Below, one piece after another: positions 19,006 to 61,866 of a stretch of DNA of 64,000 bases (positions within the stretch are counted from its first letter, which is position 1; every line of letters begins with the position of its first letter). Origin of the DNA: a virus; the IMG/VR virus record IMGVR_UViG_3300010354_000079, positions 1 through 64,000 of that record; one strand, given 5' to 3'. The position numbers were made by a program, and so were the translations under genes. The notes beneath the pieces are model-generated. The model ran no database searches, was not told the DNA's origin, and worked only from the letters and a program-made list of their open reading frames with translations.

Positions 19006-19314
19006 TCAGCCAGCTTGCTCTCTCTTTTTTCTGGCTCGCTCTCGAAGTTCACGCGCGAGTCTTTGAATTGACCTATTATGTTTTCTTCCGCCTGCCATTA
19101 AGCGAGCGGCGTGTTGTTCGTCTTCTGAAGCTTCAGTCTTAAGCTTTGTAGGGTTCACCGGAATGTTCGGGGGAAGGCATTTTCCTGCCGTTCCGAAGCT
19201 GGACCCATCTGGGCGAACGCAGCGTGTGAAATCGTAGTTTTCAGCTTCGCTGAAGTTTTCGGACGCCAAGTGATGGAAAATTTGTAGGCTCTCTTCTGAG
19301 AAAGATCCTTGCAT
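19006..19314 (-). CDS. N-module family protein (short, basic C-terminus)
   Basis: MQGSFSEESLQIF...YDFTRCVRPDGSSFGTAGKC shared with five other loci. Confidence 0.5.
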   Translation of the reverse strand: MQGSFSEESLQIFHHLASENFSEAENYDFTRCVRPDGSSFGTAGKCLPPNIPVNPTKLKTEASEDEQHAARLMAGGRKHNRSIQRLARELRERARKKREQAG

Positions 19315-19352
19315 TTTAAGAGGGTGATCTATTAGATTTTACCCTTTCGCAA

Positions 19353-19544
19353 TCACTCTCGAGCCCACCACTGGGTGCATCTTTGAGAGCACTTTAGCTC
19401 TGAGACGGGATAATCCATACCTTTTCGGAAAGCATTCTTTTGAACTTCCGGCGGGTCGTCCCCGGATATCAACGATCTGGTCTCGGCTTTCGCTGAGCTT
19501 AAAAAGAGAAAAGCTGTAACAAGAATAACGAAGAAAGTCCTCAT
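19353..19544 (-). CDS. small secreted protein (signal peptide)
   Basis: MRTFFVILVTAFLFLSSAKA signal-like N-terminus. Confidence 0.4.
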   Translation of the reverse strand: MRTFFVILVTAFLFLSSAKAETRSLISGDDPPEVQKNAFRKGMDYPVSELKCSQRCTQWWARE

Positions 19545-20110
19545 GACAAACCGAGATTGCGTAAAAAGCTTAGAATCCTTTGAAAAAGATTCTGTGGTTT
19601 CTTCCAGAGGGTTAAGGATTCGAGTTCGTCGACGGAGGCTTCGTCAGCCCAAAGCTGGAAAGATACTGTGTCTAGTGCTAAGATTTCTTCAATCTTGCTT
19701 ATAGGGGGAGTGGGAGCTATTAGAACTGGTTTGGTGGAGGCTAATCGTCCAAAGTCTTTCTTGTTTTCGCCAGCTGAGGAGTGAACTTGCTTCACCTTCC
19801 GAATTGCGTCGAGGCGAATACCATAGTGAGAGATTTTGTTTTCTCGCCTCATTCGGTCTTCTTCTGAGAGCCCCCTCTCGTCAAACTCGGCCCACTCCTT
19901 CCGTATAAAGCTAATAAACTCCACCTCCTCGTCGGTCCAGATTTCACTCTCCCCACTGTAGAAAACAAGAGTAGTGGATTCGGTCCGTGGGTCGTAAAAA
20001 GAGGATTTAACTTTTTTCTTGGCTAGATCCTGAGTTTGTTCGTTGAACCCTCCAGGAACGTTCACAATCCGAGGCACCGGAGATCCTGGAACATCTGTGA
20101 AGTAGTCCAT
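19541..20110 (-). CDS. hypothetical protein (189 aa)
   Basis: ORF track; ATGA overlap. Confidence 0.45.
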   Translation of the reverse strand: MDYFTDVPGSPVPRIVNVPGGFNEQTQDLAKKKVKSSFYDPRTESTTLVFYSGESEIWTDEEVEFISFIRKEWAEFDERGLSEEDRMRRENKISHYGIRLDAIRKVKQVHSSAGENKKDFGRLASTKPVLIAPTPPISKIEEILALDTVSFQLWADEASVDELESLTLWKKPQNLFQRILSFLRNLGLS

Positions 20111-20159
20111 TCTGCAGTCTAGGGCACTGACCTAAGCTTAGGGTTAAGCTGATATGAAC

Positions 20160-20272
20160 GGAACCGGCAGGACTCGAACCTGCAACCTCTCCTTTAACCT
20201 AGGGATTTGTACTGCTGATGTATCTTTGACAAGATAGCTTTATAGCGCTCTATCCAGTTGAGCTACGGTTCC
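20160..20272 (-). ncRNA. elongated tRNA-like gene f (~113 nt)
   Basis: acceptor GGAACCG/CGGUUCC, D-arm GCUC-AACUGGAUA-GAGC, T-arm GCAGG-UUCGAGU-CCUGC, with ~45-nt insert containing hairpin UAUCUU-GUCA-AAGAUA and CAGCAG. Confidence 0.5.
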
Positions 20273-20303
20273 AATTGTGATCTGATCTTTCGCTAAGCGA
20301 AAA

Positions 20304-20430
20304 GTCGAAGGGGCAAGATTCGAACTTGCGTATGGCGGTCCCTTTAGCGTATAGTTAATTGCTGAATCATCACTTAACTCGATGATCTTTTTTGCATTAC
20401 CGCTGCCTAACCACTTGGCTACCCTTCGTC
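20304..20430 (-). ncRNA. elongated tRNA-like gene e (~127 nt); anticodon-stem GCGGU/ACCGC brackets a 59-nt segment beginning AAUGCAA
   Basis: acceptor CGAAGGG/CCCUUCG, D-arm GCC-AAGUGGUUA-GGC, T-arm GCAAG-UUCGAAU-CUUGC; insert contains hairpin GAUCAUC...GAUGAUU and CAGCAA. Confidence 0.5.
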
Positions 20431-20435
20431 GGTTT

Positions 20436-20527
20436 TCAAGATGAGTTTTATGCTGGACTTGAACCAGCTAGCACCGGGTGTTTAACACCCGTGCATTATC
20501 CGTTTGTTGGCGGCTGCCTCATCTTTT
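20436..20527 (-). ncRNA. stem-closed structured RNA module d
   Basis: terminal stem AAGAUGAG/CUCAUCUU enclosing CAGCC, hairpin GCACGGGUG-UUAAA-CACCCGGUGC and T-arm-like GCUGG-UUCAAGU-CCAGC. Confidence 0.4.
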
Positions 20528-20546
20528 TCTTTGTTTTGCAAAGAAC

Positions 20547-20663: not shown

Positions 20664-20681
20664 TTTAACTTGAGTTAAACA

Positions 20682-20766: not shown

Positions 20767-20789
20767 TGAAATTTCCGTCTAACGGAAAT

Positions 20790-21028: not shown

Positions 21029-21039
21029 ATGGTTTAGCT

Positions 21040-21131: not shown

Positions 21132-22595
21132 TCAGTTTGAGAAGACGGAGCCGATGGCGTCGTAACGCTCGGTGTAAACTGTATCCTTCATAGTATCGAT
21201 CGGTGTAACAACCTTGCCGGTGAGCAGAGACTTCAGGGTAGAAGGGCTGCAACCGGAGACTAGGCAGGTTCCCGTGTCGTGCATCTTCATCGGAACGTTC
21301 TCGTAGGAATTCACATTCCAGAACACAAGCTCAGGCATCGAGTATCCCGCTTGGGCGTACTTGATACGGATAGCTTCGAAGTTCGTAACGGAAGCTCCAG
21401 AGCAGCACCGGTCAAACTGCATGTCAGAGACAATAATCAGCTTGCGAGGCATGTCACTCTCGGGAACACTGTTCTTGACCGCTGTGTTCAGCACAAGGTT
21501 GAATACCGCTTGCAAGTCCGTATTCATCTGCCAAGCGGCCTGCGACAGATTCCGAATGCGAGAAGCAATCGTAGCTCCGGTCACGGTCTGCAACTCAGGG
21601 CAAGACGAGAAGGTCAGAAACTTATCCTTCCAGATTCCTGTGTTTCTCTCAGAGATGTACATCGCCAGAGAGATGGAAACTGCCATCGGCGTTCCCCTCA
21701 TGGAACCTGAAACGTCCGCAACAACCAGTCCATTAAACTCTTGACCATCCATGTAGTTCGGCAGAGCCTCCCACATCAGGTTGAGAGTTTGATCGTTGGT
21801 CTCACGTCCAGTTAAATACTTGTCTACGATTTCATAGGGGTACAACGTTCCTGCGTTAATCTTGGCCTCGCCCTTCTCAACCGAGTTGAGGTAGGCTTGG
21901 TAGCGATCTCCGTCACGTTTGGCGAAAGCCTTACGGTACATGAAGCCAGCCCGTGAAGGAAGCTTGCTGTAATCAATTCTTTCCCACTCACGAGCGCACA
22001 TCGCTTGTTCAACGATGCGAATCCTCGTTCGCAGGGCAGCCAGAGCTTTACGGTACTCCCTCGCATTCCAACCCATGGTTGCGGCAATCTTTCGGCCAAG
22101 CCTCCTGGAGTTCTTGCTGGAAGCGTTCACTGAGGGTAGCCACTTGGCTACCAGAGAAACAGGGTTTTCAACTTCGGTGTTCAAGTCAGCCGTAAGCTGA
22201 GCCTTGATCATGTTCAGAGCCGTGTCCCAAACAAGGGTGTTCTCCAGGGAGAGAAGGTCGTCCCAGCGACCGTATTCGGGAATGAGGGAAACCAGCTTGG
22301 CTCCGATGGTAGCATCGCTGCGGACCAGTTCTTGGAACAATTCTCGGAAGATCTTACGCTCTCCTTGACCACCACGAATGTCACGAGCCCAAAAGAGAAT
22401 GCGCGTTGCCGTTTCGGGATCTTCGGCAAACGCTAAGCTGAACAGCTTCATGGCTTGGGCAACGTCATTGCGGCAAGCGGCAATTTTTCCAAACAAGTCC
22501 AGGCACCGAGAACCGGTGGACTTGTAAGCTTTTGCCCCATTGACAGTTGTGGTAGTATTCAATTCGTTTTCGAGTGCGTTCAAAAAAGTTGTCAT
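21132..22595 (-). CDS. Ro60-like RNA-binding protein (TROVE/DUF2828-like module + vWA with MIDAS)
   Basis: C-terminal GLVVADVSGSMRG (DxSxS MIDAS, cf. my recollection of Ro60 DVSASM); N-module PEYGRWDDLLSLEN resembles Ro60 GWSHKDLLRLSH; start trimmed to MTTFLNALENEL. Confidence 0.55.
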   Translation of the reverse strand: MTTFLNALENELNTTTTVNGAKAYKSTGSRCLDLFGKIAACRNDVAQAMKLFSLAFAEDPETATRILFWARDIRGGQGERKIFRELFQELVRSDATIGAKLVSLIPEYGRWDDLLSLENTLVWDTALNMIKAQLTADLNTEVENPVSLVAKWLPSVNASSKNSRRLGRKIAATMGWNAREYRKALAALRTRIRIVEQAMCAREWERIDYSKLPSRAGFMYRKAFAKRDGDRYQAYLNSVEKGEAKINAGTLYPYEIVDKYLTGRETNDQTLNLMWEALPNYMDGQEFNGLVVADVSGSMRGTPMAVSISLAMYISERNTGIWKDKFLTFSSCPELQTVTGATIASRIRNLSQAAWQMNTDLQAVFNLVLNTAVKNSVPESDMPRKLIIVSDMQFDRCCSGASVTNFEAIRIKYAQAGYSMPELVFWNVNSYENVPMKMHDTGTCLVSGCSPSTLKSLLTGKVVTPIDTMKDTVYTERYDAIGSVFSN

Positions 22596-22762
22596 TTTCT
22601 TTCGTCCAAGTTGATTGTTCTTTTTCAAATACAAGGCTGGATCAACTTTGTATAACGGTAGTTTTGTCGGTACAGTGACGTTTGTATTTGGAGTACAATG
22701 TTCTACTGAACCACCGTTCAAAGACAGCATAGTGCGGCTACCCTGGCAGTAAACTCTGCCTC

Positions 22763-23236
22763 TTACCAAGAGGCCTGGTATACAAAGCCCCAGTTCCAGT
22801 TATCTTTGAAATCCTCGTGCGCAAGAATCTTCTCGAGTTTCGCCGAAGTGTATTCGAGTTGGTAGTAATAGTATTCGTCGTAGTCTGTGGAGCCAAAGAA
22901 AAAGCCGGATTTGGTAGGTAGAATGGCTTCTGGCCCCTCGCCAGGTTTATTTTGGGTTTCAAGCGCTAACCTACAGCGAGTCAGGAGATTCTCCAGATCT
23001 TCTCGAGAAACGTGGATATCCTCGCAGTTGTCCTCACCGTCGCCTAAACTGACAAAGTAATTGTGAATCTGATTGGCTTTGCGCCAGTAAACGATTTCCA
23101 CTCGCGTACGAGCAGTTGGGGCGTTATGATGGATAAGACCCGTAAGGCCGAGGCTTTCAGTGATTTTTTCGAACTCCTCTCTATTATCTGAAAGAGATAG
23201 AAATTTTTCTGCAAAAAGGTAAGAGTCAAGTCCCAT
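22763..23236 (-). CDS. hypothetical protein (157 aa)
   Basis: ORF track. Confidence 0.4.
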   Translation of the reverse strand: MGLDSYLFAEKFLSLSDNREEFEKITESLGLTGLIHHNAPTARTRVEIVYWRKANQIHNYFVSLGDGEDNCEDIHVSREDLENLLTRCRLALETQNKPGEGPEAILPTKSGFFFGSTDYDEYYYYQLEYTSAKLEKILAHEDFKDNWNWGFVYQASW

Positions 23237-32829: not shown

Positions 32830-33456
32830 TCACTTGGTCTCTTCATTGCGCAGAATGCGAGCGAGTTTCACCAGATACTCGTCGCTCCCGTAAATCTCTC
32901 TCAGCTTACCAAAGTCCCCTTTATCGATAAGTCCTCGCATCATCGTCGAACTTTCGGAACCTTCGGGTCTCGGAATCAACTGCCCACCGATGCCAAGCTT
33001 TTTGGTCAATCCTTCGAGGTGGTTCTTGCGATCTTCACCAAGGGCGAGAAGAACGTTTTTGGCTCCTTGTTCATCAACAACTTTCTTCAGGGCTTCATAC
33101 GTGTTAGAGGCGTGGATGAATCTCACTCGGGAGACATCCACACCTTGCTGTTTCAGCACGCGACGAAACATCAAATTTCGAAGGTTCCAGTCGACATTGG
33201 TCTTCGCCCCGCTCATGATTACGTTAACCACCTGGGATTTTTCCAGTAGATTCTGAATCACACGAGCGTGTCCAGGAGTCGGGATATTGTACTTCCCCCA
33301 GGTCACCCCGACTTTGAACGGCTTCTCTTTCGCCCCAGTCTCAGTCCCTTTTCGGCACTTTCCTTTCGTACCATAGTATGTTCCGTCAGAGCGGACACAG
33401 CGAGTGAAGTCGAAAACCAGATCTGTCACTTCTTTGCGAATAAATCCGGAATACAT
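32830..33456 (-). CDS. NMNAT-like nucleotidyltransferase fused to the N-module
   Basis: GKYNIPTPGHARVIQ ((H/T)xGH motif) and ESSTMMRGLI (ISSTxxR-like) after N-terminal FDFTRCVRSDGTYYGTKGKCRKGTE. Confidence 0.5.
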   Translation of the reverse strand: MYSGFIRKEVTDLVFDFTRCVRSDGTYYGTKGKCRKGTETGAKEKPFKVGVTWGKYNIPTPGHARVIQNLLEKSQVVNVIMSGAKTNVDWNLRNLMFRRVLKQQGVDVSRVRFIHASNTYEALKKVVDEQGAKNVLLALGEDRKNHLEGLTKKLGIGGQLIPRPEGSESSTMMRGLIDKGDFGKLREIYGSDEYLVKLARILRNEETK

Positions 33457-33487
33457 TACGAAAGCACCATCTAACGGATTTTACCCG

Positions 33488-36772: not shown

Positions 36773-36846
36773 ATATATAACTATAGCGCTTTCGCGAGCG
36801 GAAGCAAAGGGGGGTAAACCGGCTTTCAAGGTACGGTTAACCGCCC
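36773..36846 (-). promoter_or_regulatory. cassette E13 (type B; TATAGT, ATG +6-7)
   Basis: GGGCGGTTAACCG...CCGGTTTACCCCCCTTTGC...TATAGTtatatatATG. Confidence 0.55.
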
Positions 36847-37896: not shown

Positions 37897-38285
37897 TTAA
37901 TTCTTTATTGCCTCCCGAATAGACTTTTTAGGAACGAGATATGTATTTCCAACTCTCTCTTCGGGTTTTCCGACTTTTGCCCTAATTCGACCCGCAACTA
38001 GAATCAAGTTGTTCTGTGTTCCGTCAAACCCTAATCTCTCCATTTCTCGGCGTATCGACACATCGCTTCGAAACTTAGAGTTGACCAAAAGTTGGGCCAA
38101 AGCCTTTTCTTCTTTAGTGAATTTGACAGTGGGCTTCTTTTCTTTCTCTTCTCTTTTTCCCTTAGACTCAACCTTTTATTCTACCCCTTTCTTGCACTTC
38201 CCTCTAGAACCATAAACTGTTCCGTCCTGGCGAACGCAGCGAGCGAAATCGTAGTGAAAATCTTTCAACAGACCGTGAAAAACTT
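37897..38285 (-). pseudogene. N-module fragment in frame with downstream 67-aa ORF across a single TAA (pseudogene or readthrough candidate)
   Basis: ...DFHYDFARCVRQDGTVYGSRGKCKKGVE-TAA-KVESKGKREEKEKKPTVKF...(TTG)AQLLVNSKFRS... all one frame; no ATG for the module-bearing part. Confidence 0.35.
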
Positions 38286-38344
38286 CGAGAGACTTATCTG
38301 AAAAGTTCCGAGCATTTTGATGCTTTTGCTATACGAGTTTACCC

Positions 38345-42349: not shown

Positions 42350-42352
42350 TGT

Positions 42353-46955: not shown

Positions 46956-48332
46956 TCATTGTAAGTCTTTTGGTAGTTCAGGGTCTTCTGCAACTATGAT
47001 AGCGCCACGGTTGAGAACGACCCAGTAATCTTGCCCGATTTGGGGTATTCTGTAAGCGTGAATACCAAGTGCGGCGGCGGCGGCTCCAGCGTCGATAAAA
47101 ACACGTCCGGTTGTTCTTTCCGCTTTCCCGATGATTTCTCTTTCCCACTGTGGAAAGGTCTTACCGTCTTCGTCAGTCTGTGCCAAGTTTGCGTCGGAAC
47201 GAAAGGCGAATGCCGTTACTCGAGATGCCGCACCTCCTTCTCCTCCGGAGTAAGAGATTGCAGTCTCTTGTGCCCACCTATCATGTTTTGTGTTTCCTTT
47301 TATGGTGGAGGAAGCAGCATAACTTCCGTCCCCGTAAATCCCCTGCCCCGGGAAATGGGCCTCGCCGTTCGGCCCGCCACCTTTGAACTGAAGAGAGTAT
47401 TCCTCAGTTGTGACCCCACGATAGGCAATGATCGGCCTTCCGTCGGGGTTTCTGGCTATGTCGCTTCTTGCTTCTAAATCGGACCTTTTCGCAACAACCT
47501 CTGGTTTTGCATTAAACCCCTGTTTTGCGTAGATCGTTGCGAGACGCGGAGGACTCACTGAGGACAAGTCGCCCTTTTCTGCGTATTGTATATCTAGCTC
47601 AAGCGAAAAAATTCGTCTCTTAATGTACCTAGCGTCAGAGGGGAGAGCCTCACTCAATTCCTTTTTCTGTGCCTCCAGCTCTTCTTTCAACTCCCTTAAA
47701 ACAAGTGCCTTTGTTACTTTAGGGAGCGGCTTGAGACTACCTGGAGTTTGAGTGTATTTCGGGGACTGTTTTAAGAGCTCACTTTCTCCTTGCTTAGAAC
47801 TTGCGGGAACTTTCGACTGCGTCTCGGTCTCAACCTGAGCTTTTTTGGAGTCCAGGTGAGCCTTCATTCTCAATGCTCTTAGAGCTATGAGAGTGTTTAC
47901 TGTGAGCGGTGTCCTAAATCCAGGATTGCTCTTTATAAGTCTGGCCAGTGTCTGGATATTTTTTTCTATGTCCTCGGGCTTAGTGTTCTCGTGTGCTTTC
48001 AGCTCTTTTAAGATCTTAACCCTGCGCTCAGACTTGCTTTCTTTTTTGGGCTCGGGTGCCCCTTCCATGCGACTTGCAGCTGCGGCCATGCGAGCTCTTG
48101 TTTCAGCCTGCCTTGCCTTCTTTTCTGCAGGCGTCAGCTTAACCTTTTTGGAACGGGACTTAGGTGGCGATGCAACCTTGGCTTCTTCGGTACCCTTTCG
48201 ACACTTCCCTGATGTACCGTACACTGTTCCATTGGGCCTCACGCACCGTGTGAAGTCAAAGGAATCTTCCGAGTATCGGTAAATGAGATCAGAGCACAAG
48301 TCTAAAGCTTCTTCGGAAATTCTTCCTTGCAT
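46956..48332 (-). CDS. N-module protein with C-terminal R-S-ExE mono-ADP-ribosyltransferase-like domain
   Basis: N-term SFDFTRCVRPNGTVYGTSGKCRKGTE; C-term IIAYRGV (Arg), SYAASST (STS-like), FPQWEREII (Q/ExE). Confidence 0.45.
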   Translation of the reverse strand: MQGRISEEALDLCSDLIYRYSEDSFDFTRCVRPNGTVYGTSGKCRKGTEEAKVASPPKSRSKKVKLTPAEKKARQAETRARMAAAASRMEGAPEPKKESKSERRVKILKELKAHENTKPEDIEKNIQTLARLIKSNPGFRTPLTVNTLIALRALRMKAHLDSKKAQVETETQSKVPASSKQGESELLKQSPKYTQTPGSLKPLPKVTKALVLRELKEELEAQKKELSEALPSDARYIKRRIFSLELDIQYAEKGDLSSVSPPRLATIYAKQGFNAKPEVVAKRSDLEARSDIARNPDGRPIIAYRGVTTEEYSLQFKGGGPNGEAHFPGQGIYGDGSYAASSTIKGNTKHDRWAQETAISYSGGEGGAASRVTAFAFRSDANLAQTDEDGKTFPQWEREIIGKAERTTGRVFIDAGAAAAALGIHAYRIPQIGQDYWVVLNRGAIIVAEDPELPKDLQ

Positions 48333-48334: not shown

Positions 48335-49909
48335 TCAGTCCACTACAGGGGTTTTTCTGAGTCTCTTTATCTCGTCTTGTAAGGATTCGTATCTTTCCTT
48401 CAAAGCCTTGAATCTTAAAACGAGCTCTCGGGCCTGCCTATCTTGTTTTACCCCTTCTGCTCCTAATCTCTCTTTCGCAGACAAGAAGCGCTCTTGTACC
48501 ACTTTCATATCCCCTTTGATATCGTCAAGGTCTTCCTCAAGATTTTTGATTCGACGAGCTTTTCCCTTGGTAGTTAAGCCTCCTTGGGCAATCGCACGAG
48601 CATTCCCTCCTTTCTTTTCCTCGCCTAGCAGCTGCCGAGCTTTAGCTTTTGCGGCGGCGAGAGTCGGAATACGCTGAATCTGATGCCTCTTTCCATCGGG
48701 AGTCCTTAGATCCAGGTCGTAGGAGGCTTGCCCTTTTATTCCTCCTCCCCCTTTTAATGCTCCGGGAGCGGATATTCTACCAACTCGTTCCCCTTTATGG
48801 TCGATGGCGAACAGTCCCGTCTCGAGACGAGTAATTTCAACCTCGACACCTTTGCGGCACTTTCCTGCAGTGCCGTAGGCGGATCCATCCGGTCTGACAC
48901 AACGTGTGAAGTCATAGTACTCTGATTTCCCTTCAAAAAAGTCGGATCTATCTGGGACTTTCGCCTTACCCGAAAGGAAATCCTCACCGGTCAAGATTTG
49001 GAGCCAAACTTTCACTTCTTCGATTTCAGAAGAGTTTTCCGAGAAATACAGGGAAGTGGGATCTTTTTCTTGGTTCAAGAATGTTTCCCTATCCCTCGTG
49101 GGTACCATAGCCCCATCCTTCTTTTGCGAATACATGTTCTCGTCCCTCTCGTCCCTCTTGCTGAACCCAACTCGCATGTACGCTCTTTGTCTCTCCTCCC
49201 CTTTTCCGTCTGCTTCCCATGCCGAAGTTTTAACTATAGTTCCTTCAGGTAGAGATCGAATTAAGGAGTCCCAGCATTTCTTAGCCATAAAGGCAATTTC
49301 GATTTGCTCTCGTCTATCTTTCACCTCCCCCGCCGAAAATCTTCCATTGACTGTAAAGTTGAATCCATCATTGGGAGAGTATGTTATAGTGAGATTGTTT
49401 CCTCCTTTTGACTTTGACAACATAACAACACCAGAGGTGCCGGTAACTCTCAGCTCAACACCCTTTGGCACACTTTTTTCTAAACGGGAAAGGAACTTTC
49501 GGTTATTTTCGGCTTGCTTAAGAGCAATTTTTGCAGAGGCTAAATTGTTCTTTAACGTTTCTTTCTTTTTGTTTTTGGTCTCCAGGGGTAGGTCTTCACT
49601 GTCTAGATCTTTCAGCTTGCCCGGAAGACTTTCCTTCAGTGTTTCATAATCTTCTCTAGCTGATTCCACATCAAACGCAGAGTATTTGATCTGGTTTTGA
49701 TCTATGTTAACTAACCCCCTACCGCTTAATTTTTTAGGTTTATACGCCTCCTCCCCTCCCCGTTCCGGTTTAGCTTGCTCAGTTCCTTTCCTGCACTTTC
49801 CTCGACTCCCGTAAGCCGAGCCGTCCGGTCGAACGCATCTTGCAAAGTCATGAACCAAATCTCTCAAGAACTTGGGATTTTGTCGAGTAGGTCTTGCCAA
49901 AGCCAGCAT
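48335..49909 (-). CDS. N-module family protein carrying two copies of the module
   Basis: HDFARCVRPDGSAYGSRGKCRKGTE near N-terminus and YYDFTRCVRPDGSAYGTAGKCRKGVE at ~aa 330; coiled-coil C-terminus. Confidence 0.5.
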   Translation of the reverse strand: MLALARPTRQNPKFLRDLVHDFARCVRPDGSAYGSRGKCRKGTEQAKPERGGEEAYKPKKLSGRGLVNIDQNQIKYSAFDVESAREDYETLKESLPGKLKDLDSEDLPLETKNKKKETLKNNLASAKIALKQAENNRKFLSRLEKSVPKGVELRVTGTSGVVMLSKSKGGNNLTITYSPNDGFNFTVNGRFSAGEVKDRREQIEIAFMAKKCWDSLIRSLPEGTIVKTSAWEADGKGEERQRAYMRVGFSKRDERDENMYSQKKDGAMVPTRDRETFLNQEKDPTSLYFSENSSEIEEVKVWLQILTGEDFLSGKAKVPDRSDFFEGKSEYYDFTRCVRPDGSAYGTAGKCRKGVEVEITRLETGLFAIDHKGERVGRISAPGALKGGGGIKGQASYDLDLRTPDGKRHQIQRIPTLAAAKAKARQLLGEEKKGGNARAIAQGGLTTKGKARRIKNLEEDLDDIKGDMKVVQERFLSAKERLGAEGVKQDRQARELVLRFKALKERYESLQDEIKRLRKTPVVD

Positions 49910-49941
49910 TCAAATCTCTGAAAGTAGTTTACCCCTTAAAC

Positions 49942-54656: not shown

Positions 54657-55256
54657 CTAGGCGGAGCCGAGAACGAAACGGACAAAGCGCTTAACAACGA
54701 TGTTTTCACCAACGGTTGCAGCAAAGTTTTTCACATAGGTCTCGACTGAGATTGTCCCGTCTTTGAGGTAAGGGTAGTCCATAAGGCACAACTCTTGAAG
54801 ACGCTTTGCGACGCGACCTTCAACAATCTTGTTTCGAATCTCCGGAGGCTTCCTTTCGAGGTCGCCCCTTCCCATTTCGATGCGAGTTTCGGAAAGAAGA
54901 ATCTCTTCCGGAATTTCTGAAGCGGACACAAACTGGATCAGCGGATAAGCAGCGACTTGCATCGCCAGGTTGTGAACAAGGTCTTGAAACGGTTTTGATT
55001 TTGCTACGAAATCCGTTTCACAGTTGACTTCGATCAAAACGCCCAGCTTTCCGCCAGTGTGGATGTAGCTTGCTACAACCCCCTCAAGCGTCTTTCGACC
55101 TACCTTACCATCCGCAATTGAAATTCCTTTTTGCCGGAGCCATGTGATTGCCCCTGCCTCATCCCCCTCAGAGTGAATAAGAGCTTCTTTGCAGAGCATC
55201 ATTCCTGCCCCGGTCTTCTCTCGCAGAGCCTTGATTTGTGAAAGCGAAATGGTCAT
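54657..55256 (-). CDS. tsf: translation elongation factor Ts (short form)
   Basis: IKALREKTGAGMMLCKEAL...LRQKG...GVLIEVNCETDFVAKS. Confidence 0.8.
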   Translation of the reverse strand: MTISLSQIKALREKTGAGMMLCKEALIHSEGDEAGAITWLRQKGISIADGKVGRKTLEGVVASYIHTGGKLGVLIEVNCETDFVAKSKPFQDLVHNLAMQVAAYPLIQFVSASEIPEEILLSETRIEMGRGDLERKPPEIRNKIVEGRVAKRLQELCLMDYPYLKDGTISVETYVKNFAATVGENIVVKRFVRFVLGSA

Positions 55257-55922: not shown

Positions 55923-56153
55923 TTACCGAGGAAGGATTCGAAGGACTGACAGGGCTAACAGAATAACTATTACAAAAACGAATCCTATCCACCAAACAGG
56001 ATCCGTAGGAAGACCGCGAGTTTGAAGAACTCCGTCTACAAAGTGATGGTGGATTGCGACGATAGCTAGAGCCACACAAAGTGACACAAAAGCCATACGA
56101 CCGAGAACAATGAACGACACTATGAGAGCTAAGGATTCCATAAAATTACTCAA
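55923..56153 (-). CDS. small membrane protein (paralog of 1616..1849)
   Basis: see 1616..1849. Confidence 0.45.
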   Translation of the reverse strand: MSNFMESLALIVSFIVLGRMAFVSLCVALAIVAIHHHFVDGVLQTRGLPTDPVWWIGFVFVIVILLALSVLRILPR

Positions 56154-58089
56154 AGATTACCCAAGCGGGTGTGTTAGAAGGGGAAAAGTGCAGGGGCCCA
56201 AGTCTAACTCCTCGAAAGACTGCCACCCTTTCAGGAACTCCGCTTTTCCAAGATAAGAAAGTAGTGTTACCAAAAACAGTAGTCTGATAGTTTCCGGGGA
56301 CGAGACGAACCTTGTCTTGAGCGGGATTGAAGTCGGTTATCATTGCGTAATCTGATATACCCGACGTTCTATTGGAGCCATCGTTATAGAAAACGTACGG
56401 GACACCATTTCTCCTCTGACCAAGACGAAATACGTCGTTCCCTGAACCACCCGTAAGGGTGTCAATCTTTCCTTTTCCGAGGGTTAATAGACTTGTTCCC
56501 GTTGCGGGAATCCCTGCAATGTAATCGACTCCACTTGTCCCAGTAATAGAGTCGTTCGAGCTGGTCCCCCATATCACGGATATACCGGGACCGGGATAAT
56601 TGTCCCCGAGTTGGGAAAGCATCGCGGTTATGTTTAGTCTCCCCCTGGAAGAGACTTTTCCGACAAGTGAAGTCGTAGGGGATGAAGTAGATAGGGCCAC
56701 TTGGGAAACCTCTCTTTTTCCAGCGGCAGGGAATGAAGACTTCGCCAAAGCAAGAGCGCCCATCACATGGGGTGTCGCCATCGAAGTTCCACTTAGGCTG
56801 GTGTAGGTATTTCCGGGTGCCGTAGACTGGATTCCCCCTCCGGGAGCTCCAATCTTAACAACAGGGGAGCCAAAGTTGGAGAACCAAGACAGATTCCCGT
56901 TCGGGTCAATCGAGGCCACAGGGAGAACAGCTTCCCAACCCGCGGAGCTCAGGGTGGAATAACTCGCAGGGTAGAACGGAATTGAGACTATATTTGTCGA
57001 GGAATTTCCAGCGGCTGCGACAAAATGGATATTCTTAAGAGCAGCGTTATTGATCGCAGTCTCAAGCATCGAGAGGGCTCCCCCTCCTCCCCAGGAGTTA
57101 TTTGTTCCAAGGTAAGTGGCGGGGGAAGTGGGGGAAAACTCTTTATCGTTCAGGAAAGCAACACCTGTGAAGTAGTCGACAGCGAGTGCCCCATCCGAAC
57201 TCCATCCAGACCCCTCAAAGCTCAGAAATTTTAACGGAACTATCAAAACGTTCCAATTCACCCCTGCTACTCCCACCCCATTACCACCGATTCCACCGAT
57301 CGTCCCGGCAACGTGAGTCCCGTGGTAGTGATCATCCATGGGGTCGTTGTCCCCATTCACCCAGTCCCAACCGATTAGGTCATCGACGTATCCGTTTCCG
57401 TCATTGTCAAGCCCGTCCTCCCATCGAGAATCTGAAAGCAGATCGGCAGCATCAATCCTCCCATTTTCATTGAAGTCCGTGACGTACGTGGAGTTCGCGG
57501 GCTGGTTCAAGTCACGAAAAGTGATAAGACCGTCAGCGTCAGTGTCTGCGAGAGAAGAATAAAAACTCAGTGTCTTGATCTCCCCAGGGTTCAGCCAAAT
57601 GTTTAAGTACAGGTCGGGGTGTGTGTGATCCACTCCTGTGTCGATAACCCCTACAACAACTTTTGTACTCCCAACGTAGCCTTGGGACCAGGCCCGCTCC
57701 GCTTGCGATCCATAAACATTTGTTGTGTTTGGTGGCCCAGAGTTTGGAGAGTCGTTTGAGTACATACCCCAGAGATTTCCCTGGGTGTAAATGGTATCAT
57801 TACTAACTTCCTCTATGGAAACTCTTGAGTCTTGCTCTACATTGAGAATGTTCGGATCTCGCTTCAGGGTCTCGATCGTCTTGTTTAGGTCCGTTCCCGT
57901 TGGCAAAACAAAACGTCGAAAGGTAGAGTTTCCGATACGAAAATCGTTCTTTCCAAGTTTCAAAGGGGAAGAACGAGAAGGGGGTTTTGTTGTGATGATT
58001 ATACGCTTCTCTTCAACAGCCCCAGCCGTTGTCCCAAAAAGAAATACGGACGCGAGAAAAGCTAAGGAGAGGCTGGAAAAACGAGTCAC
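56146..58089 (-). CDS. subtilisin-like (S8) serine peptidase with C-terminal RTX-like Ca-binding repeats; secreted
   Basis: signal peptide; VGVIDTGVDHTHPDL (Asp), HGTHVAGTIGG (His), GTSMATPHVMG (Ser); GGSGNDVF repeats. Confidence 0.75.
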   Translation of the reverse strand: MTRFSSLSLAFLASVFLFGTTAGAVEEKRIIITTKPPSRSSPLKLGKNDFRIGNSTFRRFVLPTGTDLNKTIETLKRDPNILNVEQDSRVSIEEVSNDTIYTQGNLWGMYSNDSPNSGPPNTTNVYGSQAERAWSQGYVGSTKVVVGVIDTGVDHTHPDLYLNIWLNPGEIKTLSFYSSLADTDADGLITFRDLNQPANSTYVTDFNENGRIDAADLLSDSRWEDGLDNDGNGYVDDLIGWDWVNGDNDPMDDHYHGTHVAGTIGGIGGNGVGVAGVNWNVLIVPLKFLSFEGSGWSSDGALAVDYFTGVAFLNDKEFSPTSPATYLGTNNSWGGGGALSMLETAINNAALKNIHFVAAAGNSSTNIVSIPFYPASYSTLSSAGWEAVLPVASIDPNGNLSWFSNFGSPVVKIGAPGGGIQSTAPGNTYTSLSGTSMATPHVMGALALAKSSFPAAGKREVSQVALSTSSPTTSLVGKVSSRGRLNITAMLSQLGDNYPGPGISVIWGTSSNDSITGTSGVDYIAGIPATGTSLLTLGKGKIDTLTGGSGNDVFRLGQRRNGVPYVFYNDGSNRTSGISDYAMITDFNPAQDKVRLVPGNYQTTVFGNTTFLSWKSGVPERVAVFRGVRLGPLHFSPSNTPAWVIFE

Positions 58090-58127: not shown

Positions 58128-59219
58128 TTAGGTCATAAAGCCGATTGTTTTTGAGTCTTTTTTCTGAGTGTACGATTGCTTGTTAAACAGCTCAGCTAGA
58201 GAGATACTCTGCTCAGGAAGATCAAGCTGGAATCCGCGCTTCTCAGCCACCACTTCAGCCTGCTTTCGTGAGAGAGGCTTAAAGTCCAGAACGTCGAAGC
58301 AGCGGCCTGGTCGAACCAGAGCTTCATCAATTTTATCAAGGCTCAGATTCGTGGTGAGAATAATCTTCTTTTCTGGCTTTGACACGATTCCGTCCCCAAG
58401 ACTAAGAAACTTGTTAACTACAGTGTTTCCCTCGTCGCGCCTTGTAAGAAACGCGTCCGCATCTTCAAGAATAAAGTAGTCGGAAGTCCCCTGAAGGAAA
58501 CTTACGAAAAAAGAGTCCTCCTTGATCAAATCGGAGTCAAAGGTCATTAGGGCTTTCACGTCTAAGTGAAGAAGCATTCCTCGAATGAACGAAGATTTTC
58601 CCGTTCCGTGAGGGCCACGTAGAAGAAGGAGAGAGGAAGAAGAGTTGTGAAAACGCTCGTAATATTCGTGAAGAGTTTCCCCGTTTAGGAAGGGGTACAT
58701 CTCCGTGAAAGGGCGATTCTCTGGTCGGATCTCTACTGATTGGCCTCGCGCCGTCGCTGTACTCTTGTTATAGAAGTAGAGTTCGAGAGTCTTCTTCGAA
58801 AAGTCATTCTTTTTGATTTTGAAAAACTTGCTTATAACTTCCTCAAGTTTATCAAATAAAGTTTCGTCTCCATAAAGAGTAACAACGCTGCGTGTTATTG
58901 AAAGACTTAAAAAGAGGCGATCGCAATACAGTTGTAGATACCTTCCAAAACAATGTGCTAAAGACTCACAAAGAGTGAGTTTTTGAATTTCTTCCCGCAG
59001 GGTGTCTAAAACTCGATTCAGGTCTATTGTGTAATCATTCTCGAAGTACAGAATACGGCTGTGAATGGCCTCTTTCCTGGAGTCAAAATCGGCAACCAAA
59101 CAGTTGAGGTAATGAACGGAAAAAGTTCTATCGTCGTCTGTCCTGGTGGCTTCTACATAAGTTATTAAAGAACCAAAAGGGCCTACTGGATGTGAGTCTT
59201 GAGTCATCAGTCGTGGCAA
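58128..59219 (-). CDS. AAA+ ATPase (BCS1-like)
   Basis: LLLRGPHGTGKSSF Walker A, ILEDADAF Walker B, RPGR sensor. Confidence 0.65.
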   Translation of the reverse strand: MPRLMTQDSHPVGPFGSLITYVEATRTDDDRTFSVHYLNCLVADFDSRKEAIHSRILYFENDYTIDLNRVLDTLREEIQKLTLCESLAHCFGRYLQLYCDRLFLSLSITRSVVTLYGDETLFDKLEEVISKFFKIKKNDFSKKTLELYFYNKSTATARGQSVEIRPENRPFTEMYPFLNGETLHEYYERFHNSSSSLLLLRGPHGTGKSSFIRGMLLHLDVKALMTFDSDLIKEDSFFVSFLQGTSDYFILEDADAFLTRRDEGNTVVNKFLSLGDGIVSKPEKKIILTTNLSLDKIDEALVRPGRCFDVLDFKPLSRKQAEVVAEKRGFQLDLPEQSISLAELFNKQSYTQKKDSKTIGFMT

Positions 59220-59707: not shown

Positions 59708-60218
59708 GGTCGCAAGTCTGGATTGAGAAGCCCTCTCGAGTAGCAACAACAGTGCAATCTTCCCCAAAAAGACTTTTCAAAAGGTTCTCTGTGGGTGGGG
59801 AGGTGATAAAGTTCTCAAGAGCTTTCAAGTTATCCGGGTCAACATACTTTTTGGTTTCAGGGTCATCATAAAGTTCCCACCATGTCCCTTCAATTTCCCC
59901 TCCCTTCCCTTCAGGGTCTCGAACTAGGCCTAGAACCTCGATCTCCCTGTCAGTTAGACGACTGAGAATCGCTTTACGCTCAGAGTCTTTAGGTGTCTCA
60001 GAGGTGATTGTGAAATTTGGCTCATATACGCTAAACGTGCAGGCATCCCCATCGTTAAAGTATGGAGCGTACTGATCCCATTTAACTTCTTTCACTCGGG
60101 GATTCGCTTCCCAGAAGAGCTCAAAAAGGCCTTTGAACCTGGCTCGCATCTCCGTTTGAAACCTGGCTTGTTCGTTTTGAAAGTCCTCAACGAAATTGCT
60201 GAACTGTGTAGTTTCCAT
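59700..60218 (-). CDS. hypothetical protein, tandem paralog B
   Basis: QYAPYFNDGDACTFSVYE...ATREGFSIQTCDHD. Confidence 0.45.
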   Translation of the reverse strand: METTQFSNFVEDFQNEQARFQTEMRARFKGLFELFWEANPRVKEVKWDQYAPYFNDGDACTFSVYEPNFTITSETPKDSERKAILSRLTDREIEVLGLVRDPEGKGGEIEGTWWELYDDPETKKYVDPDNLKALENFITSPPTENLLKSLFGEDCTVVATREGFSIQTCDHD

Positions 60219-60222
60219 TTTG

Positions 60223-60585
60223 TCAATCTGAAAGTGGAATGAATCGAGTTGTTTTTTCGGAACCTCTTTTGGTACCGGACATCCAGGGTTGAGGAGTCAT
60301 GTTGTCGAGATAGCGCTCGACAGTGGGAATGAATCCGAGATCCTGAATAATGTGGTCCTCAGCTACATCTCGCGGGGAGTAAGTGATTCCGGACGAGTTT
60401 TCCCGAGTGCGACCGAAAACGCGCTCGACCAAAAAGCAGCCGAATGAGTTGTGGAGAATTGCACGATGGCGAAAGTCAGGAAAAGCCGACTTGGGACTGT
60501 CAATAAAATCGTCGATGTCGGCATAATCCTCTGGACTCCCGCCGTACTTTTTGGCATGCATGCGGCCATGCAAGAATGGTTTCAT
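60223..60585 (-). CDS. hypothetical protein (120 aa)
   Basis: ORF track. Confidence 0.35.
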   Translation of the reverse strand: MKPFLHGRMHAKKYGGSPEDYADIDDFIDSPKSAFPDFRHRAILHNSFGCFLVERVFGRTRENSSGITYSPRDVAEDHIIQDLGFIPTVERYLDNMTPQPWMSGTKRGSEKTTRFIPLSD

Positions 60586-60784
60586 CGTGGTTTCCGGTGG
60601 GTCAATTCTGGTAAAGAACCTCTGCTTGAACCTGCTTGTAGAGACTTCTACGATTCCGATCAGTCTCTTTCACTTCCGGGAGACTTTCGGGAAGCTCACT
60701 CAACAGGCGGACTTGAAGGTCCTTGGACTTGATCTCGGGAATGCGACTCATTTGGTAGTTCTTCCGAAAAGTTAATGGATCTTC

Positions 60785-61036
60785 TTAAAACTGGAGGGCG
60801 TACTTTCCGATCGCCTTCGTTGAAACGCTTGCGGTAAATGCTAGAGGGAAGTACACTTGGCCGTTTTGAAAGTGGAGACGGAAGTATTCCTTGATCAAAG
60901 TTCTTTCAAAGCCATCTTCCGAAAGGTTCTCGATCTTTCGAAGAAGACTCTGGAAGGTAGAGGAACTTCGGAGAAGTTCGCACTCTCGCTCTAAGCGTTC
61001 AGCGCGATTGTGAAGATCGCCTTTAGATCGTCGCAT
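60785..61036 (-). CDS. hypothetical protein (83 aa)
   Basis: ORF track. Confidence 0.35.
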   Translation of the reverse strand: MRRSKGDLHNRAERLERECELLRSSSTFQSLLRKIENLSEDGFERTLIKEYFRLHFQNGQVYFPLAFTASVSTKAIGKYALQF

Positions 61037-61053
61037 CTTAATTAAGGGAAAAC

Positions 61054-61126
61054 GCCTTGGGCAGGACTAGAACCTGCGACCCTCGCTTTAGGAAAGCGAT
61101 GCTCTATCCTGCTGAGCTACCAAGGC
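61054..61126 (-). tRNA. tRNA-Arg (anticodon CCU)
   Basis: acceptor GCCUUGG/CCAAGGC, D-arm GCUC-AGCAGGAUA-GAGC, anticodon arm UCGCU-UUCCUAA-AGCGA, T-arm GCAGG-UUCUAGU-CCUGC; 73 nt. Confidence 0.75.
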
Positions 61127-61173
61127 TTCAGAAGTTTTGTTCGAGGCTAGTTTACACAGTTTGAAAAATAGAT

Positions 61174-61866
61174 TCACTCACCCCTGCCTCTGGAGAGCTT
61201 TATTAATCTTTCTAGATCTCCTTGGTACTTAGTAATGGTATCCCACATTCTTAAGTTATTTCTATCTTGTGCTTGCTCAAGCAAATCCCCAGTGAATAAC
61301 CTTGCCAAGACATTCCTTCCCCTCTGTCTTTGTTGTAACTGGTCCTTAGCATCTTCTATCGCGACTCTAAATGTCTCTATCGCTTTGTCTCTTTCGTCCT
61401 TAGAAGAGTCTTTCTTCCGTTCAACGATACTCCGGGCTTTATCGAAAGACTCCTTCATTTTTCGTTCGGACTTAGCGGGGGCTGAAGCAACCACATTTCT
61501 AACTTTGGATCTCTTGGGGGCTCTTATTCGCATTTCGGATATAGCATTTTTGAGCCTTCCATACCTTTCGATCTCTTTGTCGGTGGGAGTGTATTCTGGA
61601 TTATTAATACTCTTCTCCATAATCCTTAATGCGTTTTCAGCCTTCTCCAAGGGAGTGTACCCCCTTCCAAGGGGGTTCTTTAAGTCGTGTAAAGGAACTT
61701 CTGTACCTTTCCTACAATTTCCGGAAGTTCCGTAAAATGTACCATTCGGCCTCACGCAGCGTGTGAAGTCATAAGAACCCTTTGTTTCGTTAAAATTTGA
61801 CTGCATGATTTCTGATGCCAGTTGGTTAAACTTTATAAGGGACTCTTCGGAGAATGAACCAGTCAT
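61174..61866 (-). CDS. N-module family protein (230 aa, coiled-coil C-terminus)
   Basis: MTGSFSEESLIKF...YDFTRCVRPNGTFYGTSGNCRKGTE. Confidence 0.5.
   Translation of the reverse strand: MTGSFSEESLIKFNQLASEIMQSNFNETKGSYDFTRCVRPNGTFYGTSGNCRKGTEVPLHDLKNPLGRGYTPLEKAENALRIMEKSINNPEYTPTDKEIERYGRLKNAISEMRIRAPKRSKVRNVVASAPAKSERKMKESFDKARSIVERKKDSSKDERDKAIETFRVAIEDAKDQLQQRQRGRNVLARLFTGDLLEQAQDRNNLRMWDTITKYQGDLERLIKLSRGRGE

What the first reader, a model, noticed from the sequence alone, without database searches (positions are those of the whole stretch)
19006..61866. Novel conserved N-terminal module (~50 aa; core DF(T/A)RCVRPDG..YG..GKCRKGTE) heading six different proteins, including an ADP-ribosyltransferase and an NMNAT-like enzyme
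The same N-terminal segment (MxGSFSEESLxxF ... YDFTRCVRP(D/N)G(S/T)xYGT(A/S)GKCRKGTE) opens 19006..19314, 46956..48332 (C-terminal R/STS/ExE ART-like domain) and 61174..61866. It also opens 32830..33456 (HxGH/SxTxxR nucleotidyltransferase) and occurs twice in 48335..49909. A truncated copy sits at 38200-38285. Only the first ~50 residues are shared; the C-termini are unrelated. By analogy with N-terminal capsid-targeting sequences of T4 internal proteins and Alt (an injected ART), this could be a virion-packaging/injection tag marking a set of host-directed effectors. Alternatively it could be a previously undescribed 2-Cys nucleic-acid- or NAD-binding domain.
Basis: seen in the sequence. Interest (0 to 1): 0.8.

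Follow-up and report, generated by a model that had tools for sequence, protein, structure and literature searches.

The report
Shared leader tag on phage effectors
A short, previously undescribed N-terminal tag found only in phages heads six otherwise unrelated, strongly basic proteins in this phage fragment (an ADP-ribosyltransferase-fold protein, an NAD-synthesis enzyme and others), and indirect evidence suggests it directs them into the virus head for delivery into the host.

Summary
Seven copies of one module lie in six ORFs. The module is an acidic helix (MxGSFSEEAL…(D/N)F(S/A)EG) followed by a basic 2-Cys hairpin (YDFTRCVRPDGxxYGTxGKCRKGTE). The parts after the module are unrelated. The "truncated copy" is a pseudogene. 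The module matches nothing in Pfam, PHROGs, NCBIfam, PDB or BFVD except its S-CBWM1 homologue. It defines a phage-restricted family of 989 cluster representatives. Family members are fused to ADP-ribosyltransferases, kinases, an NMNAT-like enzyme and many basic coiled-coil proteins. The carrier phages share the head genes of Synechococcus phage S-CBWM1.

Four indirect lines favour a capsid-targeting leader:
- The module's (D/N)F(S/A)EGE(T/S) motif recurs, conserved, about 70 residues from the C-terminus of these phages' head maturation protease.
- All five module transcription units carry a GGGTAAAMT motif that also precedes structural genes in relatives.
- Cargo proteins are overwhelmingly basic (median pI 9.8 against 6.5).
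- The best structural match of the ART-fold domain is a cyanophage virion ejection protein.

No virion proteomics are available, so packaging is inferred. A non-packaged nucleic-acid-binding or hub-docking domain remains a serious rival.

The parts
19006..19314 (-). 102-aa module protein; module about 19168-19314. The core ends CLPPN instead of CRKG. Basic C-terminal tail.
   Evidence: E 3.6e-23. About 90 metagenomic homologues of 50-120 aa.
19336..19344 (-). GGGTAAAAT promoter-like motif, 30 nt from motif start to the ATG
32830..33456 (-). 208-aa NMNAT-like nucleotidyltransferase. Short module at 33340-33456, then the enzyme domain with TPGH and SSTMMR motifs.
   Evidence: The S-CBWM1 homologue with the same architecture is annotated NMNAT.
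33478..33486 (-). GGGTAAAAT promoter-like motif
37897..38315 (-). Module pseudogene: ATG at 38315, 1-nt frameshift, module 38179-38315, in-frame stop 38176-38178, then about 92 further open codons
   Evidence: HMM E 4.8e-18
38336..38344 (-). GGGTAAACT promoter-like motif retained upstream of the pseudogene (29 nt to the ATG)
46956..48332 (-). 458-aa protein: module 48186-48332, K/A/E-rich helical linker, ART-fold domain 46959-47597. Starts directly after the stop of the upstream 524-aa gene and has no motif of its own.
48335..49909 (-). 524-aa protein: hairpin copy 1 at 49778-49909, unknown conserved domain at 49010-49549, module copy 2 at 48839-48952, coiled-coil tail
49926..49934 (-). GGGTAAACT promoter-like motif, probably serving the 524-aa and 458-aa gene pair
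61174..61866 (-). 230-aa module protein (module 61699-61866) with a basic helical C-terminal part
   Evidence: (E 4.8e-25)
61889..61897 (-). GGGTAAACT promoter-like motif

Best explanation
The module is a phage-specific N-terminal leader. It marks a class of basic, otherwise unrelated proteins for incorporation into the procapsid of S-CBWM1-like large phages, so that they are packed with the DNA and enter the host with it. This is analogous to, but not homologous with, the capsid targeting sequence of T4 internal proteins and Alt.

Proposed steps, all inferred:
1. Module genes are transcribed from the same GGGTAAA-type promoter as head and tail genes.
2. The leader docks the protein to the assembling head core. 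It consists of an acidic helix, the (D/N)F(S/A)EGE(T/S) motif and a basic 2-Cys hairpin.
3. The head maturation protease carries the same motif about 70 residues from its own C-terminus. It either uses the same docking site or cleaves after F-(S/A)-E. Cleavage would remove the acidic helix and cut multi-module proteins into pieces that each begin with the hairpin.
4. The basic cargo rides with the DNA and is ejected.

Shown directly: the module family, its restriction to phages, its near-exclusive N-terminal position, the diversity and basicity of the cargo, the shared motifs, and the shared head genes.
For: Architecture. The family has 989 cluster representatives, and the module almost always occupies residues 1-56. 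There are 125 distinct module proteins in 75 viral loci. 47 of 76 loci with a module hit (E < 1e-5) have two or more copies, and one has nine.

Cargo. Partners include canonical R-S-ExE ARTs, one hit to an Alt-like ART PHROG, kinases, an NMNAT-like enzyme and many charged coiled-coil proteins.

Basicity. The non-module parts have median pI 9.8, and 88% are at pI 9 or above. Neighbouring ORFs have median 6.5 and 27% (p = 4e-62). In the window all five intact proteins have pI of at least 9.1, against a window median of 6.0.

Phage restriction. In 185,579 species genomes, true modules occur on only four MAG contigs.

Shared head genes. An S-CBWM1-type portal (59-67% identity) is found on at least nine of the module-bearing contigs. 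These include the 201-kb and 277-kb contigs closest to the window.

Protease motif. 46 of 60 distinct protease C-terminal tails contain F[SA]E, against 0.075 expected per tail. 47 of these motifs lie 60-79 residues from the end, within CEGLEFGTLEF(S/A)EGE(T/S)P. The module consensus just before the hairpin is D-F-S-E-G-E-T-Y. The 858-aa protease-scaffold protein of the closest relative has four F[SA]E motifs. Its gp171-like neighbour has NFSE, and its gp172-like neighbour has a conserved RYAET at residues 14-18. In the unknown domain of the 524-aa protein family, an F-x-E about 40 residues after the core is invariant within variable sequence.

Precedent. The SPN3US prohead protease removes its own 64-residue C-terminal propeptide at its cleavage motif (PMC10052503). 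T4 internal proteins share only a CTS (PMC3012670).

Promoter-like motif. GGGTAAAMT occurs seven times in the window against 0.93 expected. Five sites lie 29-30 nt before the five module transcription units. 40 of 90 module genes elsewhere have GGGTAAA[ACT], mostly 28-37 nt from the ATG. The motif precedes the portal, protease, sheath, tape measure and tail fibre genes in S-CBWM1. It or a one-mismatch variant precedes the sheath, portal, protease and gp172-like genes in the 201-kb relative.

Gene context. In related contigs a module gene lies within adaptor-TerL-PhoH-module-'virion structural protein'-tail fibre.

Against: No virion proteome was available. S-CBWM1 gp165 and its NMNAT are not annotated as structural, while gp174 and gp176 are.

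The NMNAT-module fusion is conserved across the group. A metabolic enzyme is an odd capsid cargo.

The match to the protease is only a short motif. An HMM of the N-terminal helix hits the proteases weakly (E 0.03-0.1) and does not hit the S-CBWM1 protease at all.

Outside the modules, F[SA]E is not clearly enriched in module proteins (24 observed, 16.8 expected). It is about 1.9-fold enriched in all neighbouring ORFs.

The GGGTAAA motif also precedes non-structural genes such as PhoH, a RIO-like kinase and a GT2 gene. Its timing is unknown.

In the window the module genes lie among auxiliary genes, not head genes. If cleavage occurs before the hairpin, the role of the conserved hairpin stays unexplained.
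Confidence: 0.5

Rival explanations
1. The module is a small functional domain that acts in the infected cell and is not packaged. The basic 2-Cys hairpin might bind metal as a dimer or form a disulfide. It would tether diverse enzymes and basic coiled-coil proteins to nucleic acid or to one common hub protein, while the acidic helix masks or regulates it.
For: The core is basic and two Cys are invariant. AF2 predicts a helix plus a three-stranded sheet with pLDDT 80-88 in the sheet. Cargo proteins are basic and often carry K/A/P-rich, histone-like linkers. The NMNAT fusion is conserved. A second Cys-rich module (KxCxKGKSCGAxCIxxxxxC) heads other proteins in the same phages. Internal copies exist, as expected of a domain.
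Against: This does not explain the near-exclusive N-terminal position. It does not explain the conserved MxGSFSEE start. It does not explain the motif shared with the head maturation protease. It does not explain the promoter-like motif shared with structural genes. No known nucleic-acid-binding or zinc fold matches.
Confidence: 0.25
2. The module is a pro-sequence or recognition tag for cytoplasmic phage proteases or unfoldases. The window encodes a subtilase, an AAA ATPase and a papain-like peptidase. These would time the activation or removal of toxic effectors.
For: The window has S8 subtilase (56146-58089), AAA (58128-59219) and C1 peptidase (52245-53144) genes near module genes. F-(S/A)-E looks like a processing site.
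Against: None of these three genes was found in the 75 module loci, although those loci span only about 10 kb each side. S-CBWM1 has modules but no such genes in its annotation. The motif is shared with the head protease, not with these enzymes.
Confidence: 0.07
3. The module binds NAD or a nucleotide and is shared because the ART and NMNAT both use NAD.
For: It co-occurs with an ART-fold protein, an NMNAT-like enzyme, NAMPT and PRPP synthetase in the window.
Against: Most of the family is fused to kinases, coiled coils or unknown domains. The roughly 25-residue hairpin has no resemblance to known nucleotide-binding folds. NAMPT and PRPP synthetase lack it.
Confidence: 0.02

Closest known systems
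T4 capsid targeting sequence (CTS) of internal proteins IPI-III and Alt
   Same: A short N-terminal sequence is the only thing shared by diverse, mostly basic, host-directed proteins, including an ART. The proposed processing is after a Glu in a hydrophobic-x-E motif by the head protease (PMC3012670).
   Different: I saw no sequence similarity by eye. The module is about 50 residues with a folded 2-Cys hairpin, against about 10 residues in T4. The head genes are S-CBWM1-type, not T4-type. Copies also occur inside proteins. Packaging is unproven.
MuF / SPP1 gp7 'minor head protein' polyvalent toxins
   Same: A constant N-terminal head-association part is joined to variable C-terminal effectors such as ARTs. 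The window's ART-fold domain is homologous to the C-terminal part of the cyanophage PSS2 'minor head protein' and to phrog_16619.
   Different: No MuF domain or any Pfam domain is found in the 458-aa protein. The constant part here is a small new module present on many separate genes per genome.
Propeptide-bearing ejection and inner-body proteins of giant phages (phiKZ, SPN3US)
   Same: Many head-internal proteins are cut by the prohead protease at an x-x-E motif, and the protease removes its own C-terminal propeptide of about 64 residues (PMC10052503). Here the shared motif lies 60-79 residues from the protease C-terminus.
   Different: Those propeptides are not one conserved module, and the motif there is A-x-E. 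No homology was detected.
Zinc ribbon / zinc knuckle mini-domains
   Same: A small beta hairpin with conserved Cys and Gly in a basic context.
   Different: Only two invariant Cys and no conserved His. No structural match in PDB or BFVD. No Pfam match.

Membership tests
T4-type capsid targeting sequence system | The same N-terminal sequence on otherwise unrelated proteins of one phage | tested here: met
T4-type capsid targeting sequence system | Proteins present in the virion and N-terminally processed by the prohead protease | not testable with these tools
   Only indirect evidence: an F-(S/A)-E-G-E-T motif shared with the head protease.
T4-type capsid targeting sequence system | Sequence relatedness to the T4 CTS (MKTYQEFIAE) and T4-type head genes | tested here: not met
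   No PHROG or Pfam hit for the module. The carrier phages have S-CBWM1-type portal and protease genes. Similarity to the T4 CTS was judged by eye only.
MuF/SPP1 gp7 polyvalent minor head proteins | N-terminal MuF (Phage_Mu_F) domain | tested here: not met
   Pfam scan of the 458-aa protein found no family at E <= 1.
MuF/SPP1 gp7 polyvalent minor head proteins | Variable C-terminal effector or toxin domain | tested here: met
   ART fold. phrog_16619 'minor head protein', profile positions 1121-1320. PSS2 match.
Zinc ribbon | Four Cys/His ligands in two knuckles and a fold match to known ribbons | tested here: not met
ADP-ribosyltransferase (458-aa protein) | ART fold | tested here: met
ADP-ribosyltransferase (458-aa protein) | Catalytic R-S-E or H-Y-E triad | tested here: inconclusive
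   The G-x-Y of GSYAA is invariant and the R-G of YRG is nearly invariant (at least 90%), but no Glu is invariant. By eye, DYWVVLNRG sits where iota-type toxins have ExE-(V/I)LLN. No Pfam or PDB sequence hit.
NMNAT / cytidylyltransferase-like nucleotidyltransferase (208-aa protein) | (H/T)xGH and SxTxxR motifs and a profile match | tested here: inconclusive
   TPGH and SSTMMR are present. Pfam CTP_transf_like E 0.024, TIGR00125 E 0.007 and PHROG cytidyltransferase E 4e-4 are all below the curated cut-offs. The S-CBWM1 homologue is annotated NMNAT.

The most novel reading that the evidence does not exclude
The module is the address label of a whole 'injectome'. A widespread clade of S-CBWM1-like large phages would load its heads with dozens of interchangeable, leader-tagged effectors, processed by the head protease at F-(S/A)-E. 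The effectors include ARTs, protein kinases, DNA-coating basic proteins and even an NAD-regenerating enzyme. They would be delivered with the DNA to disarm the host, including NAD-depletion immunity, before any phage gene is expressed.
Probability: 0.35. Interest if true: 0.8.

Novelty: new variant of a known kind. Interest (0 to 1): 0.66.

Why it matters
If the leader is a capsid-targeting and ejection tag, a simple sequence search would list the injected effectors of a large, mostly uncultured phage clade. The family has about 1000 protein clusters, and most have no known function. That would point directly to new anti-defence and host-takeover proteins.

It would also be a second, independent example of the T4 CTS principle, in a different head lineage. 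It could provide a tool for loading foreign proteins into cyanophage heads.

S-CBWM1 is a cultured member with two module proteins, so the idea can be tested directly.

Even if the packaging idea is wrong, this is an undescribed, strongly conserved, phage-only module that links ARTs, kinases and NAD metabolism.

Tried and rejected
1. Plus-strand reading of the coordinates gives only stops.
2. Near-identity DNA search of the window against isolated phages found nothing.
3. Pfam, PHROGs and NCBIfam on the module proteins gave no family for the module.
5. Sequence and profile searches of PDB with the ART-fold domain, the NMNAT-like protein and the unknown domain of the 524-aa protein gave nothing meaningful. 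Pfam on the ART-fold and unknown-domain alignments also gave nothing.
6. The S-CBWM1 paper with virion data is not held. Papers that cite it say nothing about its proteome.
7. I tested whether the N-terminal helix is homologous to the protease C-terminus. It is not significant, so only the short motif is claimed.
8. I tested for general F[SA]E enrichment in cargo outside the modules. It is not convincing.
9. Two of the top 140 family members hit phrog_595 'head maturation protease'. I could not identify which; the ten I rescanned were not them.
10. Walking beyond the window: the contig is 90.6 kb, and the extra 8.5 kb seen holds only small ORFs without Pfam hits. Two look-ups failed.
11. The window's subtilase, AAA and C1 peptidase do not co-occur with the module in related loci.
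12. Recent duplication or recombination as the cause of the repeat is rejected by codon divergence.


Full report
**The observation**

Plus-strand translation gives only stops, and minus-strand translation gives the proteins described.

A six-frame regex scan and an HMM built from family members both find exactly seven copies in six ORFs:
- 19006-19314, 102 aa
- 32830-33456, 208 aa
- 38179-38328, a fragment
- 46956-48332, 458 aa
- 48335-49909, 524 aa, with copies at residues 10-45 and 320-357
- 61174-61866, 230 aa

The module has two parts:
- an acidic N-terminal helix: MxGSFSEE(A/S)L…(D/N)F(S/A)EG
- a basic hairpin with two invariant Cys: (Y/F)DF(T/A)RCVRP(D/N)G(S/T)xYG(T/S)xGKCRKGTE

In the core, protein identity averages 71% and DNA identity 66%. 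59% of identical residues use different codons. The copies are therefore old paralogues kept by selection on the protein, not recent repeats.

The parts after the module are unrelated to each other.

The 'truncated copy' is a pseudogene. It keeps its upstream motif and its ATG (38315). It has a 1-nt frameshift right after ATGCTCGG and an in-frame stop after KKGVE. About 92 further codons remain open, down to 37897.

**What the window is**

109 of 120 ORFs lie on one strand and GC is 48%. Identified genes include:
- NAMPT and PRPP synthetase
- two RNA ligases
- a TROVE/Ro60-like protein
- a Tet/JBP dioxygenase
- EF-Ts
- a subtilase, an AAA ATPase and a papain-like peptidase

No structural genes are present. 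The window is the reverse complement of about 64 kb of a 90.6-kb metagenomic contig. It has no close DNA match among isolated phages.

Its nearest relatives are a 201-kb and a 277-kb IMG/VR contig, with NAMPT at 82% and 68% identity.

**The family**

An exhaustive HMM search of 1.84 billion cluster representatives finds 989 proteins at E <= 1e-3, of which 520 are at E <= 1e-10. The module is almost always at residues 1-56, and some proteins have two or three copies.

IMG/VR holds 75 loci with 125 distinct module proteins of up to 746 aa. 47 of 76 loci with a module hit have two or more copies, and one 13-kb locus has nine.

In one genome per species for 185,579 species, true modules occur on only four MAG contigs. 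One is a 50-kb contig with five tandem module genes. The remaining pattern matches are chance hits. The module is therefore phage-restricted.

The only isolated phage that has it is Synechococcus phage S-CBWM1. Its gp165 is annotated hypothetical, and its annotated NMNAT also carries the module.

**What the module is fused to**

Among the top 140 family members Pfam finds:
- ADPrib_exo_Tox in five and ART in four
- protein kinase, ABC1 and APH domains
- DUF6496
- a cytidylyltransferase-like domain

PHROGs adds an Alt-like ART, 'minor head protein' and two hits to 'head maturation protease'. I could not trace those two protease hits to particular members.

Several members carry canonical R-S-ExE ART motifs, for example FYRG … SSYS … EQEALLPRG. 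Most of the family has no known domain and consists of K/A/P-rich linkers and charged coiled coils.

Whatever the partner, the non-module part is basic. Its median pI is 9.8, and 88% are at pI 9 or above. Neighbouring ORFs have median 6.5 and 27% (Mann-Whitney p = 4e-62). All five intact window proteins have pI of at least 9.1, against a window median of 6.0.

**The two enzymes named in the finding**

The fold claim therefore holds. The catalytic claim does not. G-x-Y in GSYAA is invariant and R-G in YRG is nearly invariant, but no Glu is invariant. By my own reading, DYWVVLNRG occupies the place of the ExE strand. The protein may be a divergent or inactive ART.

Among isolated phages, its only homologue is the 'minor head protein' of cyanophage PSS2.

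The 208-aa protein has TPGH and SSTMMR motifs and weak nucleotidyltransferase profile hits, all below the curated thresholds. Its architecture, module plus enzyme, is conserved across the group. Together with NAMPT and PRPP synthetase in the window, this suggests NAD salvage. That reading rests on established knowledge of phage NAD-reconstitution pathways, not on a test made here.

**Evidence bearing on mechanism**

*(a) Shared head genes.* S-CBWM1-type portals (59-67% identity) occur on at least nine of the module-bearing contigs, including the 201-kb and 277-kb relatives of the window.

*(b) A motif shared with the head maturation protease.* In the module, the residues just before the hairpin have the consensus D-F-S-E-G-E-T-Y. 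F and E of this motif are at least 90% conserved.

The S-CBWM1 protease has LEFSEGET and MEFSEM near its C-terminus. [DEN]F[SA]E occurs only six times in that phage's proteome: twice in the protease, and once each in gp165, the tape measure protein, gp2 and gp9.

Across 60 distinct protease C-terminal tails from portal-linked loci, 46 contain F[SA]E, against 0.075 expected per tail. 47 of the motifs lie 60-79 residues from the C-terminus, inside the conserved block CEGLEFGT(L/M)(E/D)F(S/A)EGE(T/S)P.

In the 201-kb relative the 858-aa protease-scaffold protein has four F[SA]E motifs plus a YSE. The next gene product has NFSE. The gp172-like protein has a conserved RYAET at residues 14-18.

In the unknown domain of the 524-aa protein family, an F-x-E about 40 residues after the conserved core is invariant within otherwise variable sequence. 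Internal module copies are each preceded by (N/D)F(S/A)E.

This is the pattern of a short linear motif: either a protease site (P3 aromatic, P2 Ser/Ala, P1 Glu) or a common docking peptide.

As precedent, the SPN3US prohead protease removes its own 64-residue C-terminal propeptide at its own motif. T4 internal proteins share only a CTS that is removed at an x-E site.

*(c) A promoter-like motif.* GGGTAAAMT occurs seven times in the window against 0.93 expected. Five sites lie 29-30 nt upstream of the start codons of all five module transcription units. The 458-aa gene follows the 524-aa gene directly and has no motif of its own.

In related loci, 40 of 90 module genes have GGGTAAA[ACT], mostly 28-37 nt from the ATG, and many others have one-base variants.

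In S-CBWM1 the motif is strongly strand-biased. It precedes the portal, protease, sheath, tape measure and tail fibre genes. In the 201-kb relative the motif or one-mismatch variants precede the sheath, portal, protease and gp172-like genes.

Other genes in the window use a different, sigma-70-like element.

*(d) Gene context.* In several relatives a module gene lies within adaptor-TerL-PhoH-module-gp174-like gene-kinases-tail fibre. S-CBWM1 gp174 is annotated 'virion structural protein'. It begins with a second, 4-Cys motif (KxCxKGKSCGAxCIxxxxxC) that also heads several unrelated proteins. In one case this motif is preceded by SFAEG.

**Weighing the evidence**

Together these points make a capsid-targeting leader the best single explanation, at about 0.5. 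Every step beyond the sequence patterns is inferred.

Points against:
- No virion proteome was available, and S-CBWM1's two module proteins are not annotated as structural.
- The conserved NMNAT fusion is hard to square with packaging, unless early NAD regeneration is the point.
- The similarity to the protease is a 7-residue motif, not a significant alignment.
- F[SA]E is not enriched in cargo outside the modules and is mildly enriched in all neighbouring ORFs.
- The GGGTAAA motif also precedes PhoH, a RIO-like kinase and a GT2 gene.
- Cleavage before the hairpin would leave the most conserved part unexplained.

The main rival, at about 0.25, is a small nucleic-acid-binding or hub-binding domain that works in the cell. 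A tag for the window's own subtilase, papain-like peptidase and AAA proteins is unlikely (about 0.07), because S-CBWM1 has modules and appears to lack those genes. NAD binding is essentially excluded by the domain census.

**Comparison with known systems**

Functionally the closest analogues are three:
- the T4 CTS system
- MuF-type polyvalent minor head proteins
- the propeptide-bearing ejection proteins of giant phages

Membership in any of these fails on sequence. There is no MuF domain, no T4-type head genes and no similarity to the T4 CTS. The module is also not a zinc ribbon.

I therefore rate it a new variant of a known kind. It is a new, phage-only sequence module whose most likely role repeats a known principle in a different head lineage.

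**Verdict**

- Observation: confirmed.
- Interpretation: partly supported.
- Interest: 0.66.

Noticed in passing
window, minus-strand sense; plus-strand 9-mer GGGTAAACC starts at 2353, 7449, 18701, 29163, 32773, 36812, 37697, 63959: Eight copies of a long conserved intergenic element: GGCGGTTAACC-N~12-GGCGGTTTACCCCC(C)TTTGC-N~17-TATAGT-N~5-ATG. It looks like a sigma-70-type promoter (-35 TTTGCT, -10 TATAGT) with an upstream direct repeat. The start codon is so close that transcripts may be leaderless. It is a different class from the GGGTAAAMT motif of the module genes and is not conserved in S-CBWM1.
   Followed up: partly
window 40856-43270 (-) and 32830-33456 (-): NAMPT (497 aa) and PRPP synthetase (305 aa) lie next to each other, with the NMNAT-like protein 7 kb away. 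Together they would form an NAD salvage or reconstitution set, in a phage that also encodes an ART-fold protein.
   Followed up: partly
window 54657-55256 (-): A phage-encoded elongation factor Ts homologue (Pfam EF_TS, E 8e-29). It is 72% identical in the 201-kb and 277-kb relatives.
   Followed up: partly
window 52245-53144, 56146-58089, 58128-59219 (-): A papain-family C1 peptidase, an S8 subtilase (647 aa) and an AAA ATPase lie close together. This is unusual in a phage and the role is unknown. None was found near module genes in related loci.
   Followed up: partly
window 21132-22769, 27515-28600, 35675-36829, 4609-6105 (-): A TROVE/Ro60-like protein (DUF2828/DUF7788), an Rnl2-type and an Rnl1-type RNA ligase, and a Tet/JBP 2OG-Fe dioxygenase. 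These form an RNA-repair and DNA-modification toolkit.
   Followed up: no
L001 42376-43962 (S-CBWM1 gp174) and ORFs in L004, L005, L007, L042, L052, L068, L075: A second short N-terminal module with four Cys, K(R/K)CxKGKSC(G/S)AxCIxxxxxC, heads a 'virion structural protein' of S-CBWM1 and several unrelated proteins, including kinase-like ones, next to module genes. It is sometimes preceded by FAEG. It is absent from the window.
   Followed up: partly
window 49010-49549 (-), residues 121-300 of the 524-aa protein: An unknown conserved domain (…NG.YD.G.V.DR.EQ…RSLP.G…TSAWD.DG.G..R..AY.R.GFS…). It recurs in at least 14 module proteins and twice in some. It has no Pfam or PDB match and always ends with an invariant F-x-E.
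   Followed up: partly
window 13501-13509 (-) and 63693-63701 (-): These are the two GGGTAAACT sites not linked to module genes. One lies 35 nt before an internal ATG of a family-2 glycosyltransferase ORF (12605-13513), suggesting the true start is near 13470. The other has no obvious gene behind it.
   Followed up: partly
L099 (MAG 'Microbacteriaceae' contig CALGUV010000039.1): Five consecutive genes carry a variant module with an insertion (…DGSFYPIPDGKKCRKG…). This is probably a phage contig binned into an actinobacterial MAG, and it hints at hosts beyond cyanobacteria.
   Followed up: no
L004 5547-7307 and 7329-8723: Two adjacent large-terminase homologues in the 201-kb relative of the window's phage.
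   Followed up: no
L127 10543-13119: The head maturation protease of the 201-kb relative is 858 aa, against 480 aa in S-CBWM1. The difference is a very long acidic, repetitive insert between the protease domain and the conserved C-terminal block.
   Followed up: no
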